The position numbers and the translations under genes were made by a program. Below are positions 1,135-30,875 of a stretch of DNA of 38,018 nucleotides, piece after piece. Origin of the DNA: a virus (Duplodnaviria; Caudoviricetes); IMG/VR virus record IMGVR_UViG_3300029318_000026, positions 1-38,018 of that record. One strand, given 5' to 3'. Numbering within the stretch: position 1 is the stretch's first letter; every line of letters starts with the position of its first letter. A model generated the notes under the pieces. That model saw nothing but the letters and a program-made list of their open reading frames with translations. It had not been told where the DNA came from and ran no database searches.

Positions 1135-2094
1135 ATGGGTTTACTAAGCGAAGAGAAAGCACAGGAGCTGACTGAGAAGCTGGAGCTTGGATTCTCCGGG
1201 CAGAGTGAACCTGCGTCCGTGACCGAGGACGTAAAGCCAGAGGTCGAGGCTGCACCCGCAGCCGAAGAGGTGGCTGAAGCCCAGACTGAGACACCGGAAG
1301 TGCCGGCTGATCAGGGTGGGGCAGAGGCCCAAACCGGCGAGAGCGAGGCGAAGACAGAGGCTAAGTCAGACAGCGGCGCTGACGAGGACGACTCTTTGCC
1401 ACCGGGCCACCGTGTACCGTACAAGCGGTTTAAGAACGTTCTGGAGGCGCGCAACAAGTACCGGCTAGATGCCGAAGATGCTGCTGCACAAGTCCAGTTG
1501 TTCAAACAGCAGGTAGAGGCAATGCGCAACGAGGTTGCGATGATGCGGAACCTGCAACCAGCCAAGCCGGCAGAGAGCGAAGTAGAGGTCTCCGACGAGC
1601 TCGATAGGCTACTGAATGGCAACCCAGACCTTCCGAAGGAAGTGAAGGATAAGATCGCCATGATGGAGGCTCGCCTGCACCAGCAGGAGGTCCACGCTGA
1701 GCGGATTCGTCTTCGGCAAGAGGTCGCCGATGTCACCGATAAGTATGACAAGAATCTCACTACAGACCTTCAGCAAGTTCTCTACAGCGCCGTACAGCGT
1801 GATCCGAATGTAGACTTAGATCAGGTGGCAGAGCAGTACACGACGTGGGTCGCTAAACGCGAAGAAGAGGCGATTGCTCGGTATCTTGAGAAGAACCCCG
1901 GTGCATCTGTTGCAGAGGCCGAGGCTCAGGCTTCCGAGGCGTCGTCAGGCGTTCCTTCACGCCCAAAGCGTGCAGGGACGGGAGCGTCAAGTGTTGCTCG
2001 AACCGCTGACCGCAAGTCTTACAGCACGATCAAGGAGGGCACAGATGCCCTCTTCAAAGCCATGGAACGTGGCGATATAAAACTCTTCGGTTAG
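1135..2094 (+). CDS. Capsid scaffolding protein
   Basis: Acidic, low-complexity N-terminus, RVPYKRFKNV followed by a coiled coil, directly upstream of the capsid gene, RBS AAGGAG. Confidence 0.72.
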   Translation: MGLLSEEKAQELTEKLELGFSGQSEPASVTEDVKPEVEAAPAAEEVAEAQTETPEVPADQGGAEAQTGESEAKTEAKSDSGADEDDSLPPGHRVPYKRFKNVLEARNKYRLDAEDAAAQVQLFKQQVEAMRNEVAMMRNLQPAKPAESEVEVSDELDRLLNGNPDLPKEVKDKIAMMEARLHQQEVHAERIRLRQEVADVTDKYDKNLTTDLQQVLYSAVQRDPNVDLDQVAEQYTTWVAKREEEAIARYLEKNPGASVAEAEAQASEASSGVPSRPKRAGTGASSVARTADRKSYSTIKEGTDALFKAMERGDIKLFG

Positions 2095-5924: not shown

Positions 5925-6580
5925 CAACGGCAGAACTCATAGTCAAGTTCCGTCAGTATATTGACGAGCCTGACCAGACCTTTGTGTCTGACTCGGACGT
6001 GTCAACCTACCTAGCCGATGGCTACCGTGAGTTCCGCAACATGGTGTGCGACATCAACCCGGTGATCTACAACACCACACAGAACATCACGCTATCCAAT
6101 GCGATTAGCCACGACCTAGCCAATGTTGACCCGAAACTCCTGGGCGCTAACGCAATCGCAAACCCTGGCCGCATGGTCAGGCTTAACACCATCGTGAAGC
6201 GCAACTCTGAAGGCCGGATATCAGAGAGGCTTGAGGCGGTTAGCAACGAGCAGGCACTAGATGTTGTGCCTTGCAGCTACTACCTGGCTAACACCATCCT
6301 CAGGTTCAGCACTCGGCTCACAGGCACTTACGAGGTCAACTACGTGCCAGAGTCTACTGTCGACTGGACTGACGGAAACCCAAACTTCATCGACAATCTA
6401 ACTCCGTTTCACGACTTGATTGCGCTCTTGGCTTATCGCCAGTACGCCATTGTGGATGGCGCTGAGAGCGAACCAATCCTGAGGCAGGCTGCCACGCGCA
6501 TGTCTGAGTTCAGAGAGTACCTGCAGGCAAGAGCCTACGACGGCTACGACTATATCCAAACCGTTCCCTGGTATAGCTAA
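5921..6580 (+). CDS. Putative head-tail adaptor
   Basis: 219 aa directly after the portal (ATGA overlap); MTTAELIVKFRQYIDE..YLADGYRE and FHDLIALLAY resemble adaptor proteins. Confidence 0.65.
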   Translation: MTTAELIVKFRQYIDEPDQTFVSDSDVSTYLADGYREFRNMVCDINPVIYNTTQNITLSNAISHDLANVDPKLLGANAIANPGRMVRLNTIVKRNSEGRISERLEAVSNEQALDVVPCSYYLANTILRFSTRLTGTYEVNYVPESTVDWTDGNPNFIDNLTPFHDLIALLAYRQYAIVDGAESEPILRQAATRMSEFREYLQARAYDGYDYIQTVPWYS

Positions 6581-9447
6581 TGGCTACCAAAGCCCAAGAG
6601 GTACAGGTCCTCAGAGACGGCATCCAGGCGAACGCACCCACACCAGGGTCGTTCGCTTTGAACATGCTGTTTAGCAACAACTGCTGGCAAGTGCGAGAGG
6701 GCTTTGGTCAGGTCACTCAGTTCGACACTGAGATGTCCGCCATATTTAGTGGGTACGAGAATTCTGAGTGGGGATTCACTAAGCACCTTGGGTCGCACCT
6801 GATTAAGACAGGCTTTGGCAACCTCCAGATGCTGTCTGTTTTTCTCGCAAAGGTTATTTCCTCTGAAGCTGGTGGGCCTAACCTTGCCTCAGTATACGCA
6901 CCCTTGAAGGACATATACATAGCCAGCGTATACGACCTGACTACCAACGAGCGCTTTGAGGTGCCGCTATACCCGCACACCAGCCAGACCGCTGTGGCTT
7001 CAAGTTACAATGATGCGGTCCCCACCGCTCTTGGTGGGCGCGCAACAATCTCAGTGTCCCCAACCAACCTTGACGACCTTTTGCCCCAATACCAAACATG
7101 CAAGAGTGAGTCCTACGAGGCGTGGGTCCAGGCAGAGGATGAGTTCTTTTATTTCAAAGAGTTCGCTGACATCCTCTACTTCGGCAACAAGTACACTGGC
7201 ACATGGGCGTACTTGCCGTCGTCGTTCAATGGCACGCGCAAGACCTTCATAGACAAGTTCAACCTGCGCGACTACGCCCTGTCCTACGGCGAGTCGAGCA
7301 TGATAACACCTGTGGTGCTTAGCCCTGGCATCAACACAGATGCCTACGCTTACTTCAGAACCGCAGACATGCCTAACGCTGTGGACATTGCAGTGGTGTC
7401 CGGGCGGATGGTTTACGCGGAGGGCAACACGGTCTTCTTTTCGGACCCGTTTTATCCCAACGCCATTGTAGGCGACAACTTCGTGCAGGTGCCTTCTGAA
7501 GAAGGCATCACAGCGGTGGCTGAGCACAACTCAAACCTGATGATATTTACAGCCAACGAGACATGGCTTTACCAGCCTTCCGTTGGAGACCTAGCTTCAG
7601 CCGGTAGGATTAGCCGTGTGAGCGACACGGTGGGCTGCGTTGGGCCTAACGCAAAGTGCCGCATGGGGTCGGCTTTGGTATGGGTGGATACAAGCGGTGT
7701 GTACCAGACGACGAGCGGGCTCAACATGAGCCGCCTGTCGGACGATGTGCTTCCATTCTTCGAGAGGGAGGGGATGACCAATCCCCTCACATCTTACTTT
7801 GTGGACCATGGCAAGGCGAACCCGTCGTTAAGGGAGCAGCCGACTACCACGCTGAGACTGAAGCCAGAGGGCGTGAAATGCACCTACGTCGCATCGATGA
7901 ACATGCTCTCGATCTGCGTCCCAGACCTGAGCGGCGCCCTTGTATTGAGCGGCGGGAAGTGGTCGTGGTGGACATTTGAAAGCATGGTCGCTCGGCTGGG
8001 AGACTCCGCCGTAGTTGGTGTCAGCCAGAACCTACCCGCACCGTGGGTGCTGAACTACCAAGACGACATCTTTGCTATCGCAGGCCCAGATGTCCAGGCG
8101 CTAACTGACGAGGCTGTTGACGTGTCTGGCTCAGACATTAACTTCGACGTCACCTCACGCTCGTTCTTCATCATGGAGTACGGCAGAGGCGGCTCTATTG
8201 ACCGCAGCGTCTCTGATGAGGATGACCGCAAGATAACAGGCTACGGAGCGTATACGCCTGGAGCAGGAACAGGGGCCACGCCTCTTGGTGGCCTCTACTT
8301 GCACGACCCAATCAAGGTGCCCGTTGGGTACGTGTTCCCGTCTGGGGTCACGACAGCCACCACCGATGATTACATCTTGGTGTTGTTCAGCATTGTCCTT
8401 GGTCAGTCCATGGACGTAGACACCATCGAAGTCGACCTTGCGTTTGATAACACCCACTGGAAACCAGTGTTTAACCACGCGACCAACTCCACAGTCGACT
8501 TCCTGCTCCCAACAGAGCGCCTAGCCAGCGCAGCAGGGTGGACCACTAGCGGCAGTCATCTTGGCAAGGTCCAGGTCTTTTCCGACTCAGGAATGACCAC
8601 TGCCGACCAGGATGGCAAGTTCCTCAAGGTCAAGTGGGACTACGTCTCTACATCAGGGTACCAGCACGCTCCGCACATGAACCTTAACGTCCTCAGGGAT
8701 AACCGGCTTATATACGTGCCCTTCAAAAGAATATCAGCAAAAGCTGACGAGGACACGAGTAGCATGGGCTGGTCAGTGCTTACCACCCTAGGGACCACCC
8801 ACTTCACCGTTACTGATGACAGCGCCGGAACAACCATACGGCCTGGGGTCAACATCTTTAACAGGTGGTCCTTGGCAACAACCTCGGTGCGCAAGGAAGA
8901 CTCTGTCGCCCAGCCTGTAGACTGGGCCTACAAGTCCACCAACGTGGGCCTAGAGGGCGGCAACCAACTTAAGATGCGCGGCCTCTACGCCAACCTGCTA
9001 AGCCACGGCACGGGCACAGACAAGCTCGACAGCGTCTGGCCCTACGGCACATTCAACACCCTAGTAGGCAGCGACCGTAAAGAGTGGATGACCCAGGTCA
9101 TCGACGCCACCCCAGCACAAGCCGCAGTAGAGCAGGTGGCCGGAACCAACACACTGCGCACTAGGGTGCAGAAGAGCAATGGGGCCTTGGTTGACAAGGT
9201 GTTCCAATCTGGCGGGACTGACATTGTGTGGGCCAACAAGGACGCGACTGGTTCTGCAACGGCTGATGGCACGGTCTTAATCGGCGATGAAGACACGAGC
9301 AATATAGCTGTGAGCATGTCGGTCAAGGGTGAAAGCTTCAGCGTAATGAACTTCGGGTTCATCATGAACCGAGCCGAAAAGCTCTGGCTTGAAGGCGTCA
9401 AGGCGGTGTTCCGAGTGGTCGGCGGTCGCCGCAGAAGGGGCCGCTAA
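6580..9447 (+). CDS. Putative tail nozzle / tail tubular protein
   Basis: 955 aa after the adaptor; beta-propeller-like segments (VFFSDP, EGITAVA, LMIFT, VGCVGPNA, LVWVDTSGVY) typical of P22 gp10/T7 gp12-like hubs. Confidence 0.68.
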   Translation: MATKAQEVQVLRDGIQANAPTPGSFALNMLFSNNCWQVREGFGQVTQFDTEMSAIFSGYENSEWGFTKHLGSHLIKTGFGNLQMLSVFLAKVISSEAGGPNLASVYAPLKDIYIASVYDLTTNERFEVPLYPHTSQTAVASSYNDAVPTALGGRATISVSPTNLDDLLPQYQTCKSESYEAWVQAEDEFFYFKEFADILYFGNKYTGTWAYLPSSFNGTRKTFIDKFNLRDYALSYGESSMITPVVLSPGINTDAYAYFRTADMPNAVDIAVVSGRMVYAEGNTVFFSDPFYPNAIVGDNFVQVPSEEGITAVAEHNSNLMIFTANETWLYQPSVGDLASAGRISRVSDTVGCVGPNAKCRMGSALVWVDTSGVYQTTSGLNMSRLSDDVLPFFEREGMTNPLTSYFVDHGKANPSLREQPTTTLRLKPEGVKCTYVASMNMLSICVPDLSGALVLSGGKWSWWTFESMVARLGDSAVVGVSQNLPAPWVLNYQDDIFAIAGPDVQALTDEAVDVSGSDINFDVTSRSFFIMEYGRGGSIDRSVSDEDDRKITGYGAYTPGAGTGATPLGGLYLHDPIKVPVGYVFPSGVTTATTDDYILVLFSIVLGQSMDVDTIEVDLAFDNTHWKPVFNHATNSTVDFLLPTERLASAAGWTTSGSHLGKVQVFSDSGMTTADQDGKFLKVKWDYVSTSGYQHAPHMNLNVLRDNRLIYVPFKRISAKADEDTSSMGWSVLTTLGTTHFTVTDDSAGTTIRPGVNIFNRWSLATTSVRKEDSVAQPVDWAYKSTNVGLEGGNQLKMRGLYANLLSHGTGTDKLDSVWPYGTFNTLVGSDRKEWMTQVIDATPAQAAVEQVAGTNTLRTRVQKSNGALVDKVFQSGGTDIVWANKDATGSATADGTVLIGDEDTSNIAVSMSVKGESFSVMNFGFIMNRAEKLWLEGVKAVFRVVGGRRRRGR

Positions 9448-28156: not shown

Positions 28157-28219
28157 GGGTAGCTACTCCCGGTTTGAGTTATGGGTTGCTTATTTGCTTG
28201 GGTTTATCCACGTGCGGCG

Positions 28220-28444
28220 CTATTTTTCGATAGCTACGAGCCAACGTCCCTCAGGGCCTAGGCGCAAAGCATCTTTGCTCACCTGATGCTTTGTCATCGC
28301 CTTTGTCCCGGTCGGATCTATCGTTATCGATCCTTCTCTCAGCTTTTCGTTCACGAGCCATTTGGCGTCATCTGTATATGGTGCGTAGTAGCGCTCTGCT
28401 TGCCATGTCGATCGAAAATATGCGGTTCCGATTAGGTGAGTCAT
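28220..28444 (-). CDS. Hypothetical protein
   Basis: GAGGA RBS preceded by the AACCCATAACCCAAA leader motif. Confidence 0.6.
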   Translation of the reverse strand: MTHLIGTAYFRSTWQAERYYAPYTDDAKWLVNEKLREGSITIDPTGTKAMTKHQVSKDALRLGPEGRWLVAIEK

Positions 28445-28508
28445 GGTGTCCTCGTTTGGGTTATGGGTTGAAGGTTTGTGAATCGTTCCACGTGGTAAGG
28501 GTGAGCGC

Positions 28509-28537
28509 TAAATAGCACGCGCTCAGTGTGCTGTCAA
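28509..28537 (-). promoter_or_regulatory. Sigma70-like promoter with overlapping inverted repeat
   Basis: TTGACA-17-TATTTA with extended TG; TGAGCGC/GCGCTCA inverted repeat flanks the -10. Confidence 0.55.
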
Positions 28538-28549
28538 CATTGTTAACGG

Positions 28550-28939
28550 TTAGGCGTTACCGCACCAGTACTCTTCGCATCCCATCCCATGCTCTGGGCA
28601 ATGTGCGATGGACGCCTCAGCAAGCGCCATTTCGTAATCCCACATCACGCCGGAGATGTGGTCGAATCGTTCACGGAGGGCGCTCATGCATGCGTCCCTG
28701 TTGCACGTCGACGTTGGCGGCGCGTGGATGGTTGCGCCGGAGAGGGCTACCAGGGCAGGGGTATAAACCCAGCATCGCACCTGGAACCTAATCCCTAGCG
28801 CCCCCTTATGCTTGCCGCTAAATGTGACCCACCAATCACCCCTCTGCAGGGGGCCGTGGAAGTGCTCTGCAGTCGCTGGTTTTGGGTCGTCCATCATTGC
28901 GCGCCACCGCTTAATTTCGTCGTGTACCTTGTAGTTCAT
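28550..28939 (-). CDS. Hypothetical protein, C-terminal C/H cluster
   Basis: 129 aa, starts MNYK inside the 32 bp repeat; ends HCPEHGMGCEEYWC. Confidence 0.6.
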   Translation of the reverse strand: MNYKVHDEIKRWRAMMDDPKPATAEHFHGPLQRGDWWVTFSGKHKGALGIRFQVRCWVYTPALVALSGATIHAPPTSTCNRDACMSALRERFDHISGVMWDYEMALAEASIAHCPEHGMGCEEYWCGNA

Positions 28940-29311
28940 GCTGTCCTCTCTGGGGTTAGTTGTGGTTCATGCTGCGCATGGCCGCACTCGCGGCCGACTC
29001 GAAGTCGGCAAACGTACACAGCTCGTCGATTCGGTCGTTGAAATCGCAGGGGTCGATATCGCTCGGCCGGTCTGGGGTGTCGTCGATGTCGCCAGACTCC
29101 ACAGCATGCATGTAATCCGGGTAGTTCATCCATCGTCGGACGATTGAGAAGGTCCCGTCGATATCCTCGTTGTCGATGATGTAGTGCGCGCCGTCACCGC
29201 CGCGTGGCGTCGTGCCGAAGTGCCACGCGCTAACGCTCCAATCGGCGTTCAGTCCGCATCTAGTGAGACCTTTGCAATTCTTGTAGTTCATGCTGTCCTC
29301 TCTGGGGTTAG
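28928..29311. repeat. 32 bp direct repeat pair (28928-28959, 29280-29311)
   Basis: Identical CTTGTAGTTCATGCTGTCCTCTCTGGGGTTAG, covering the RBS and first four codons (MNYK) of two adjacent genes. Confidence 0.92.
28956..29291 (-). CDS. Hypothetical acidic protein
   Basis: 111 aa, Asp-rich, bracketed by the 32 bp repeats. Confidence 0.6.
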   Translation of the reverse strand: MNYKNCKGLTRCGLNADWSVSAWHFGTTPRGGDGAHYIIDNEDIDGTFSIVRRWMNYPDYMHAVESGDIDDTPDRPSDIDPCDFNDRIDELCTFADFESAASAAMRSMNHN

Positions 29312-29422
29312 GGGGTTAATCAATCGCAAGAAGAGCCAACAACTAACGGGTCAGAGTGTCGCGAGACGTTGACGCGCTACGTTATAGGCTGTTCTTGAGG
29401 CTGATTAGGTTTAAGCGCTCAG

Positions 29423-29585
29423 TGCTGCGGGCGGGATTCGAACCCGCGAACACCTCAGGTGATCACCCTGAGGCGGCTTCAATCCAGGCTGCAAGGGCTT
29501 ACATTAAATATACGCGGCCATATCCGCGCCCCTGCCTACCCGCTCCGCTGCGTCGACTCAGCTTACGCTCCGTGCCTTCCGCAGC
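29423..29585 (-). ncRNA. tRNA-like RNA (163 nt) with large internal insertion
   Basis: Acceptor stem GCTGCGG/CCGCAGC+A, perfect T arm GCGGG-TTCGAAT-CCCGC, long variable-arm-like hairpin; about twice normal tRNA length; no encoded CCA. Confidence 0.65.
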
Positions 29586-29599
29586 ACTGAAAACTTAAA

Positions 29600-29902
29600 C
29601 CTTCCCCGAAGGGTTGGACACGTTCAGGTAGCGCCCGGCGCACACACACTTTAGCCATGCCAGAGCTGGCTCGTTCGGTGTCACCTTACCAGCGCCCCAC
29701 AAGGGCGCATCGCGTCTAGGTCCTAGCTCCTAAGCCGTCGACCTATCGCTTTCCCGGTTACGGCCTTTCACCGCGTCGGGACACACTCACACCATACGCG
29801 GGGTCTGCTACACCACGCGCATCCTGAGTCCTTCTGTGGGGTGACCAGCCCCAGCCAGCGCACACACCTGTGGCGCCGTATGGTCATCGGGGTGCTACCC
29901 CG
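29600..29902 (-). ncRNA. Candidate large structured RNA upstream of the tRNA-like domain
   Basis: Dense hairpins with UAGCA, UGAAA and UUCG loops; no ORF of 60 aa or more. Confidence 0.45.
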
Positions 29903-29926
29903 TCTCTCCTTTTGGGTTATGGGTTG

Positions 29927-30157
29927 TTAGTTTATTGGGGTGTGGGCTTCGTTGTACTTGACCCTACCGATGGTCGTTTCAACCCGACCGTCAATCATCG
30001 ACAAAAGCACGTCTTGCGCTTCTGCCATATCTGTGGCGAGTTGGCTGAGCGCCCCGAAGTCGTCTCTGGTCTCTATCTGCGCCAGCATAACTTTCATGCT
30101 CTGGTCCTCGATCACTTCGATAGCTGCAGCGAGTATCCCGGCTTGCTTCCTAGTCAT
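29927..30157 (-). CDS. Hypothetical protein (first leftward gene)
   Basis: MTRKQAGIL..., 76 aa, preceded by a variant of the leader motif. Confidence 0.55.
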   Translation of the reverse strand: MTRKQAGILAAAIEVIEDQSMKVMLAQIETRDDFGALSQLATDMAEAQDVLLSMIDGRVETTIGRVKYNEAHTPIN

Positions 30158-30360
30158 GGTGTCTCTCGTGTGGGTTGTGGGTTGTTTGGATTGCCTGACT
30201 GGGCCAGTATCGCCCATCGGCTTGAGGACGGTTTACGAGTAGAGTATCACCTCACTTGATGCCCCAAGGGGCTCATCGCTCCGCCCGCTGATGTTAGCGG
30301 CGTGGTCGGCTACGTTGTCAGTCTCTCCGTGTCTCAAGGTCAGTCCCCGTCGACATCTGT

Positions 30361-30420: not shown

Positions 30421-30620
30421 AAAAGCTCAATGTTCCCACTGGGTTACCGATGAACTTTTTTGGGATGATGTTCACTGGGTGGTGCGAGGGTGTATAGGCT
30501 ACCCCCCTCCATCCATTAATCCGGATGAACGGGTCAAGCTCCGAGGCCCTCCTCCCTGGGCGCATACGAATGACGGGCGCATACGCGTAGCAAGGGGCAT
30601 GCCAATAGGGATGGGGTGGG

Positions 30621-30683
30621 ATGACGCACTGTGTCATGGGGTGATGACGCACTGTGCCATGATGGTATGACGCGGCGTGTCAT
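30621..30683. repeat. Three quasi-palindromic 17 bp repeats at 23 bp period
   Basis: ATGACGCACTGTGTCAT (30621), ATGACGCACTGTGCCAT (30644), ATGACGCGGCGTGTCAT (30667). Confidence 0.85.
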
Positions 30684-30846: not shown

Positions 30847-30875
30847 TATACAAAACCCTCAAAACGTGCTATAAT
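30847..30875 (+). promoter_or_regulatory. Rightward sigma70 promoter
   Basis: TATACA-17-TATAAT with extended TG (TGCTATAAT) in an AT-rich patch. Confidence 0.65.

What the first reader, a model, noticed from the sequence alone, without database searches (positions are those of the whole stretch)
29407..29602. Oversized tRNA mimic with an extended terminal stem
Seen on the - strand: 7 bp acceptor stem (29579-29585 with 29424-29430), discriminator A, canonical T arm (29431-29447), 8 bp variable-arm-like hairpin (29452-29474) and a 7 nt loop AUUGAAG (29477-29483) with UGA in the anticodon position. The D/anticodon side is expanded by roughly 75 nt containing an 8 bp stem GCAGGGGC/GCCCTTGC. Leader and trailer extend the pairing to 12 bp, a 3x3 internal loop and 9 more bp (29407-29430 with 29579-29602). 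There is no CCA and no G3:U70, so it is neither a normal tRNA nor a tmRNA, and it is not permuted like YrlA Y RNAs. Inference: a tRNA decoy (for example against anticodon nucleases), an RNase P/RNase III processing module, or an interrupted tRNA-Ser(UGA).
Basis: partly seen in the sequence, partly recalled or inferred. Interest (0 to 1): 0.72.

Follow-up and report, generated by a model that had tools for sequence, protein, structure and literature searches.

The report
Stem-clamped oversized tRNA look-alike cassette
A marine phage carries, in the leader of its early genes, a 196-base cassette that keeps the acceptor and T arms of a tRNA but has no stable anticodon and no CCA end; it is cleanly absent in related phages, and it is likely cut out of the transcript as a stable non-decoding RNA that would act as a tRNA decoy.

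Summary
The structure is real. The fold has z = -6.5. One variant differs at 12 of 196 bases, with 2 compensatory pairs and no confident pair broken (random placement: 11 of 200,000). Three related phages lack exactly this stretch, so it is an exchangeable cassette bounded by its 24-bp terminal stem. The proposed UGA anticodon is not kept (AUUGAAG becomes AUAGAAG) and closes no proper stem, so tRNA-Ser(UGA) and an anticodon-nuclease decoy are unlikely. The frame is that of a long-arm, Leu-like tRNA with a branched 68-nt insert in the anticodon arm and a degenerate D arm. It resembles T5 RNA1 and T4 species 1 RNA in layout but is a sequence homologue of neither, and has no Rfam match. Similar long closing stems occur in 7 of 10 relatives, which suggests RNase III release; the consensus match is only borderline (p = 0.06). 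Function is inferred: most likely a decoy for host proteins that read the tRNA body. The scan has noted oversized tRNA look-alikes and stem-closed cassettes before on other DNA. New variant of a known kind; interest 0.45.

The parts
29586..29602 (-). 5' arm of the outer closing stem (leader)
   Evidence: compensatory A-U to G-C at 29596/29413 in L111
29579..29585 (-). acceptor stem 5' strand (G1, C2, U3)
   Evidence: pair probability 0.98-0.99; unchanged in L111
29549..29578 (-). degenerate D-arm region with a 3-bp tetraloop hairpin (29560-29569); A at positions 8 and 9, no GG in the loop
   Evidence: 2 substitutions in L111, one in the tetraloop
29545..29548 (-). [quoted passage not shown]
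   Evidence: C-G to U-G in L111; 1.7 kcal/mol less stable than the 9-bp variable arm form in the window; inferred
29477..29544 (-). 68-nt insert in place of the anticodon loop: 5+8 bp helix ending in a three-way junction with two hairpins (29514-29527, 29500-29512); ends in AUUGAAG
   Evidence: pair probabilities 0.5-1.0; G.U to G-C in L111
29451..29475 (-). long variable-arm-like hairpin, 6-9 bp
   Evidence: compensatory C-G to U-A at 29470/29456
29431..29447 (-). canonical T arm
   Evidence: unchanged in L111
29423..29430 (-). acceptor 3' strand and discriminator A73; G1 to A73 spans 163 nt; followed by CUG, not CCA
29407..29422 (-). 3' arm of the outer closing stem (trailer); predicted RNase III cuts would leave ends at 29597 and 29410
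   Evidence: 13 of 16 consensus positions, p = 0.06; U.G to U-A in L111
29621..29927 (-). separate upstream structured RNA module of about 300 nt, found with and without the cassette
   Evidence: no Rfam hit
29314..29406 (-). separate downstream conserved long hairpin, found with and without the cassette
   Evidence: z -6.95; 5 of 32 pairs with two-sided changes in 5 sequences

Best explanation
The 196-base stretch is an exchangeable RNA cassette in a phage early leader that keeps a tRNA acceptor stem, T arm and long variable arm around a branched insert; it is likely cut out of the early transcript by host RNase III at its outer stem and likely serves as a stable, non-decoding decoy for host proteins that read the tRNA body rather than the anticodon. 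Shown: the fold, its conservation between two variants, clean absence in relatives, loss of the anticodon and of CCA. Inferred: transcription with the early genes on the - strand; an RNase III double cut near the outer end of the stem; then either a product with clamped ends or trimming by RNase P and 3' nucleases with CCA added by the host; the decoy role. Odds by step: selected RNA structure 0.93; released as its own RNA 0.65; decoy for tRNA-body-reading proteins, given release, about 0.6.
For: Fold z -6.47. 12 substitutions in L111: 2 compensatory pairs, 2 one-sided changes that keep pairing, 0 broken among pairs of probability above 0.7, 6 at other positions; random placement of the same changes gives this in 5.5e-5 of 200,000 trials. 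Acceptor and T arm have no substitution. Wobbles form on the - strand, the strand of the neighbouring early ORFs; the opposite strand folds 20 kcal/mol less well. All 3 IMG/VR relatives that keep the downstream hairpin (L025, L028, L035) have about 2-5 nt in place of the cassette. Long closing stems occur in 7 of 10 relatives' early regions, against 0 in a late-region control and 1 in total over 5 shuffles. The outer stem matches the weak RNase III consensus (PMC4357697, one passage) at 13 of 16 positions, in register on both strands, with a 2-nt 3' overhang. T5 RNA1 has the same layout, also lacks an encoded CCA, and is annotated 'tRNA-like stable RNA with unknown functions'. Defence effectors that act on tRNA acceptor ends exist (PMC11559606, PMC12851939; search listing only).
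Against: Only two distinct sequences could be compared base by base, so covariation rests on 2 pairs; the tool's shuffle control is uninformative at n = 2 (126 of 500), and on the minimum-energy fold one weak pair is broken. The RNase III match is not significant (p = 0.06), falls to 12 of 16 in another register in L111 (p = 0.19), and none of 10 stems reached p < 0.05. U8 and the D-loop GG are missing, so the L-shaped elbow and leucine charging, which needs G18G19 and D/T contacts in E. coli (PMC9976931), are doubtful. The trailer pairs over the discriminator and the CCA positions, which would hinder RNase P and CCA addition until the stem is cut (inference). No host and no defence system is identified, and the decoy step has no direct evidence.
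Confidence: 0.4

Rival explanations
1. The tRNA frame is a stabilising scaffold; the working part is the branched 68-nt insert, an aptamer-like domain that binds a host or phage protein.
For: The insert is well folded, has only 3 substitutions in 68 nt with one G.U repaired to G-C, and one hairpin is unchanged. Unrelated phage RNAs put unrelated inserts in the same frame (T5 RNA1, L003).
Against: Conservation of the insert is no higher than that of the rest at this distance; no partner is known; no antisense match longer than 11 nt to the early transcript.
Confidence: 0.25
2. A cis-acting processing or stability module: RNase III and RNase P cut at it and so separate the upstream 300-nt RNA from the downstream hairpin and mRNA; the excised RNA itself does nothing.
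For: It sits between two conserved RNA modules; closing stems are a family trait; M. smegmatis YrlA shows that a tRNA-like module with a 7-bp acceptor stem can be cut by RNase P (PMC4201824, passages).
Against: Relatives manage with a short junction and no cassette; a processing signal does not need a conserved variable arm and a branched insert, both with pair-keeping changes.
Confidence: 0.17
3. An optional domain of one large ornate RNA of about 600 nt (29314-29927), as tRNAs are sometimes found in the GOLLD linker.
For: The whole stretch is non-coding on the - strand and folds with z -5.1; GOLLD linkers sometimes hold tRNAs (PMC12286853, passages).
Against: The three modules close on themselves and assort independently: L025 pairs the downstream hairpin with another upstream block, and a contig of run X14 holds the upstream module alone. 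No GOLLD or ROOL hit.
Confidence: 0.1
4. An interrupted (intron-bearing) or decaying tRNA gene, or a DNA-level mobile insertion with terminal inverted repeats.
For: ARAGORN in intron mode makes a call here; the ends are inverted repeats and the element is a clean insertion or deletion.
Against: The ARAGORN call uses a different, mismatched acceptor and changes identity between variants (Asn, Tyr). No target-site duplication is visible. One copy per genome. Mismatches in the repeat are one-strand wobbles, and changes are compensatory.
Confidence: 0.08

Closest known systems
Phage T5 RNA1 (NC_005859 30501-30644, 'tRNA-like stable RNA with unknown functions')
   Same: Long-arm tRNA frame with acceptor stem, enlarged anticodon arm, long variable arm, T arm, no encoded CCA.
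   Different: No sequence homology (model R2 scores only the T arm, 7.3 bits, E 1.1, below ordinary tRNAs). T5 RNA1 keeps a Leu-type D arm with GG, lies in a tRNA cluster and shows no long outer stem in the flanks printed; this one is larger (163 nt core), has a degenerate D arm, stands alone in a genome where ARAGORN default finds no tRNA, and is clamped by a 24-bp stem.
Phage T4 species 1 RNA (rnaC, NC_000866 70908-71046)
   Same: Stable phage RNA with a long hairpin, a variable-arm-like hairpin and a T arm; role unknown (PMC3014915, PMC9697503; passages).
   Different: Model R1 scores only the variable and T arms (11.5 bits, E 0.45). Two short shared words give p = 0.07 and are not conserved within the T4 family. 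rnaC is a late RNA in a tRNA cluster.
Bacterial class II tRNA-Leu
   Same: G1-C72, A73, C2-G71, long variable arm; a tRNA-Leu(GAG) in L107 has the same acceptor stem and A73.
   Different: No U8, no G18G19, no 7-nt anticodon loop, no CCA; not called by ARAGORN default or Rfam.
RNase III processing stems (rRNA operon stalks and T7 early transcript, recalled; consensus from PMC4357697)
   Same: Long leader-trailer helix enclosing a domain; partial in-register consensus match.
   Different: Here the processing stem runs straight into a tRNA acceptor stem; the match is not significant; no cut has been shown.
tmRNA and YrlA Y RNA
   Same: tRNA-like top half with a long helix in place of the anticodon arm.
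   Different: No G3.U70 and no ARAGORN tmRNA call at 70% threshold; not permuted, and no TROVE/Ro60 gene in the genome.

Membership tests
canonical tRNA (Rfam tRNA, ARAGORN) | 7-bp acceptor stem and 5-bp T stem with canonical T loop | tested here: met
canonical tRNA (Rfam tRNA, ARAGORN) | 5-bp anticodon stem with a 7-nt loop | tested here: not met
   68-nt branched insert; the UGA stretch varies; no call at default
canonical tRNA (Rfam tRNA, ARAGORN) | U8 and D-loop G18G19 | tested here: not met
   A8; no GG in the D-loop region
tRNA-Ser(UGA), interrupted | G73, conserved UGA, removable intron giving a cloverleaf | tested here: not met
   A73; UGA to AGA in L111; intron-mode call is a poor Asn or Tyr model
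leucine-accepting RNA | A73 with D/T tertiary contacts (G18:U55, G19-C56), CCA end | tested here: inconclusive
   A73 and T loop present; GG and CCA absent; charging not testable
tmRNA | G3.U70, tag reading frame, pseudoknot domain | tested here: not met
   U3-A70; 0 tmRNA calls at -ps70; no Rfam hit
YrlA Y RNA | permuted order with the acceptor-like stem closed by a loop; next to Ro60 | tested here: not met
   ordinary order; 0 TROVE matches in the complete genome, control rang in 2 of 14
T5 RNA1 family | homology to a covariance model of 4 members | tested here: not met
   7.3 bits, T arm only; T5 itself 155 bits
T4 species 1 RNA family | homology to a covariance model of 5 members | tested here: not met
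   11.5 bits, variable and T arms only; T4 itself 161 bits
oversized phage tRNA-like stable RNAs (layout class) | tRNA outer frame with enlarged anticodon arm, in a phage | tested here: met
oversized phage tRNA-like stable RNAs (layout class) | accumulates as a discrete stable RNA | not testable with these tools
   no RNA holder listed
RNase III substrate | about two helical turns of duplex | tested here: met
   24-bp stem with one mismatch
RNase III substrate | weak sequence consensus in register | tested here: inconclusive
   13 of 16, p = 0.06; L111 12 of 16, p = 0.19
mobile insertion with terminal inverted repeats | target-site duplication and several copies | tested here: not met

The most novel reading that the evidence does not exclude
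The early leader of this marine phage family is an array of swappable RNA and gene cassettes, each released by its own closing stem, and this cassette yields an end-clamped (possibly circularised) tRNA-body mimic that never receives CCA and neutralises a tRNA-targeting host defence: an RNA-only counter-defence gene.
Probability: 0.15. Interest if true: 0.8.

Novelty: new variant of a known kind. Interest (0 to 1): 0.45.

Why it matters
T4 species 1 and T5 RNA1 have been annotated as stable RNAs of unknown function for decades. This example is easier to test than those: it stands alone, has sharp natural boundaries, and natural with/without alleles exist among close relatives, so its processing and any effect on host defence can be assayed as one unit. 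If it is a decoy, it would show that phages counter tRNA-directed immunity with RNAs that gene callers, ARAGORN and Rfam all miss. The host is unknown and the phage uncultured, which limits this.

Tried and rejected
Exact and near-exact DNA patterns in IMG/VR gave no close homologue: 0 hits; 3 hits, two ordinary tRNAs and L003; 18 hits for an upstream-module word with no extended match; 2 hits already held; 8 hits for a D-region word, none scoring with model R3; 78 hits for the downstream hairpin, 1 true and already held. BLAST of 29380-29930 against 50,697 phages matched only T arms. Model R3 over 28 relative records gave 0 of 28, but only 3 are at least 90% complete and the call had no positive control. 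Of 9 metagenome hits: L104 is identical to the window and probably the same source, L111 is the variant, L109 and L110 repeat L003, L105 and L103/L106 are other RNAs, L107 and L108 are ordinary tRNAs. Antisense control of early genes: longest perfect match 11 nt, rejected. Coding on the + strand (ORF 29356-29598): 8 amino-acid changes and a lost stop from 12 substitutions, rejected. T4 rnaC homology through two shared words: p = 0.07, rejected. Host: no close prophage; best helicase matches in genomes 25-34%; portal matches under 30%. Expression: no RNA holder listed. The base-level differences of a third variant (run X9, 28 other letters and 4 gaps over 29314-29606) were not obtained. Literature: searches found no description of this element or of a stem-clamped oversized tRNA mimic; the library lacks most subscription and older papers. 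In PMC10690425 (viral candidate RNAs) four short words and two contig ids were not found, but 3 of 6 held files were not searched and 3 more cannot be read, so overlap with that catalogue is open.

Full report
Setting. The window is a complete 38-kb virus record with direct terminal repeats. PHROGs matches to terminase, portal, major head protein, endolysin, SSB, Erf, a DNA methyltransferase and a DnaB-like helicase make it a tailed phage of bacteria (53 ORFs scanned of 151 listed). The six runs that hold half or more of the stretch are marine metagenomes, five marked as possible sources. The element lies on the - strand in a non-coding gap (29292-29926) between small leftward ORFs that I read as early genes. 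The host was not found.

Observation. The 196-nt stretch folds at -100.2 kcal/mol, z -6.47, 0 of 200 shuffles as good. ARAGORN default finds no gene in the window and Rfam no family. The outer '3x3 loop' is one U/C mismatch between two U.G wobbles. From G1 (29585) to the discriminator A (29423) the core is 163 nt.

Selection on the structure. A gapped pattern scan of metagenome contigs gave 9 loci. One, L111, is a variant with 12 substitutions in 196 nt. Judged on pairs of probability above 0.7 predicted from the window sequence alone, these are 2 compensatory pairs (outer stem A-U to G-C, variable arm C-G to U-A), 2 one-sided changes that keep pairing, 0 broken pairs and 6 changes elsewhere; the same changes placed at random give at least 2 compensatory and none broken in 5.5e-5 of 200,000 trials. 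On the minimum-energy fold one weak pair is broken. On a tRNA-frame structure that I wrote after seeing both sequences, all 126 cells pair, against 34-47% when slid; the shuffle control says nothing with two sequences. Acceptor and T arm are unchanged. The opposite-strand ORF takes 8 amino-acid changes and loses its stop. A third variant exists in run X9, but its letters were not obtained.

A cassette. The helicase found 188 relatives, 80 kept. Three cover the homologous site with the downstream hairpin intact, L025, L028 and L035, and all three have only about 2-5 nt where the window has 196. A loose end in run X9 reads, by eye, like the L028 junction, on a contig of depth 91, against 6.2 for the filled form. 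There is no target-site duplication and one copy per genome. L029, L034, L038 and L039 cover the early region and show no match to the cassette or to either neighbour. The two neighbours are separate modules: about 300 nt upstream (29621-29927), found on its own in a contig of run X14 and replaced by another block in L025, and a 93-nt hairpin downstream (z -6.95; 5 of 32 pairs with two-sided changes in 5 sequences).

What kind of tRNA frame. G1-C72, C2-G71, A73 and a long variable arm point to a Leu-like class II origin; a tRNA-Leu(GAG) in L107 has the same acceptor stem. Bacterial Ser identity uses G73, and Leu identity uses A73 with G18G19 and D/T contacts but not the anticodon (PMC9976931, passages). 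Here U8 and the D-loop GG are missing, so a proper elbow and leucine charging are doubtful. The anticodon arm is replaced by a 68-nt helix with a three-way junction. [quoted passage not shown] The AUUGAAG stretch becomes AUAGAAG in L111; AGA would also read serine, but the stretch closes no 5-bp stem, so I give that little weight. ARAGORN's intron mode returns a poor model on a different 5' strand, Asn in the window and Tyr in L111, and no tmRNA.

Processing. Long closing stems occur in the early regions of 7 of 10 relatives, against 0 in a late-region control and 1 in total over 5 shuffles; in L025, L029, L034 and L035 I see a small ORF inside. The element's own stem matches the weak E. coli RNase III consensus (PMC4357697, one passage) at 13 of 16 positions, in register on both strands, and would give a 2-nt 3' overhang with ends at 29597 and 29410. 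This is not significant (p = 0.06), is weaker in L111 (p = 0.19), and none of 10 stems reaches 0.05. RNase III release is therefore an inference from geometry and family context. [quoted passage not shown]

Function. I commit to a stable, non-decoding decoy for host proteins that read the acceptor/T-arm half of tRNA (0.40). The unchanged parts are those that such proteins would read, and defence effectors acting on tRNA acceptor ends are described (PMC11559606, PMC12851939; search listing only). There is no direct evidence. Rivals: scaffold for the branched insert (0.25), cis processing module (0.17), domain of one large ornate RNA (0.10; PMC12286853, passages), interrupted, decaying or mobile element (0.08). 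Antisense control of early genes was tested and rejected.

Comparison with known RNAs. Notes of this scan pointed to T5 RNA1 and T4 species 1 RNA. I fetched both and folded them; T5 RNA1 has the same layout and no encoded CCA. Covariance models from 5 T4-type members (of 751 records matched) and 4 T5-type members (of 487) score the element at 11.5 and 7.3 bits, on the variable and T arms only, below ordinary tRNAs. It works like these RNAs in layout and is not a member of either family. Their roles are stated as unknown (PMC3014915 and PMC9697503, passages). It is not YrlA (PMC4201824, passages; no TROVE gene). The passages read of a review of non-canonical tRNAs do not describe this layout (PMC7609411). 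Two unrelated oversized RNAs with the same acceptor stem, L003 and L105, turned up and are missed by ARAGORN default; they share no inner sequence with the element.

Novelty and score. Searches found no description of this element; supplements of PMC10690425 (passages read) could be searched only in part. The scan has recorded oversized tRNA look-alikes and stem-closed cassettes in other phages, though nothing on this genome or look-alike stretches and nothing for the combination searched. What is particular here is the union of the two: a processing-type stem continuous with the acceptor stem, a degenerate D arm, and natural presence/absence alleles. New variant of a known kind, interest 0.45.

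Noticed in passing
window 29621-29927 (-): About 300-nt structured non-coding module, closed by a terminal helix, conserved in marine relatives (runs X8, X9, X14; L111, L028, L035) with no Rfam match; deserves its own study.
   Followed up: partly
window 29314-29406 (-): Conserved 93-nt long hairpin directly before the next gene; z -6.95, 5 of 32 pairs with two-sided changes in 5 sequences.
   Followed up: partly
L025:6667-7021, L029:6501-6793, L034:1558-1878, L035:920-1294, L032:865-1735, L111:103-446: Stretches of 230-400 nt, most holding a small early ORF, enclosed by 23-30-bp closing stems with shared end sequences.
   Followed up: partly
L028:3033-3118 (-): Type II hammerhead ribozyme above Rfam gathering score in the early region of a relative.
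   Followed up: no
L025: about 6160-6620 (-): A different non-coding block of about 450 nt fills the slot of the 300-nt module; no Rfam hit.
   Followed up: no
L003:1043-1223 (same as L109, L110) and L105:1201-1377: Unrelated oversized tRNA-like RNAs of about 180 nt without CCA, missed by ARAGORN default; L105 shares short 5' and T-arm words with T5 RNA2.
   Followed up: partly
L106 around 1201-1376 (-), same as L103: T-arm-bearing domain inside what looks like a longer hairpin-rich non-coding stretch; no Rfam hit.
   Followed up: no
window 30615-30683: Three near-palindromic 23-nt repeats in tandem between the divergent gene blocks, operator-like (D2), near a sigma-70-type site at 30847-30875.
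   Followed up: no
window 28166-30186 (-): Repeated A/C-rich leader words before several small early ORFs, and a 32-nt exact repeat at the starts of ORFs 28939 and 29291 (D1, D3, D5).
   Followed up: no
window 29564-29567 and 29519-29522 (-): Possible 4-bp loop-loop contact between the D-region hairpin and an insert hairpin; the L111 change turns a G.U into A-U. Weak, may be chance.
   Followed up: no
L006 around the match (IMGVR 3300009788_002229): Shares a 20-nt word with the upstream module in an apparently non-coding stretch.
   Followed up: no
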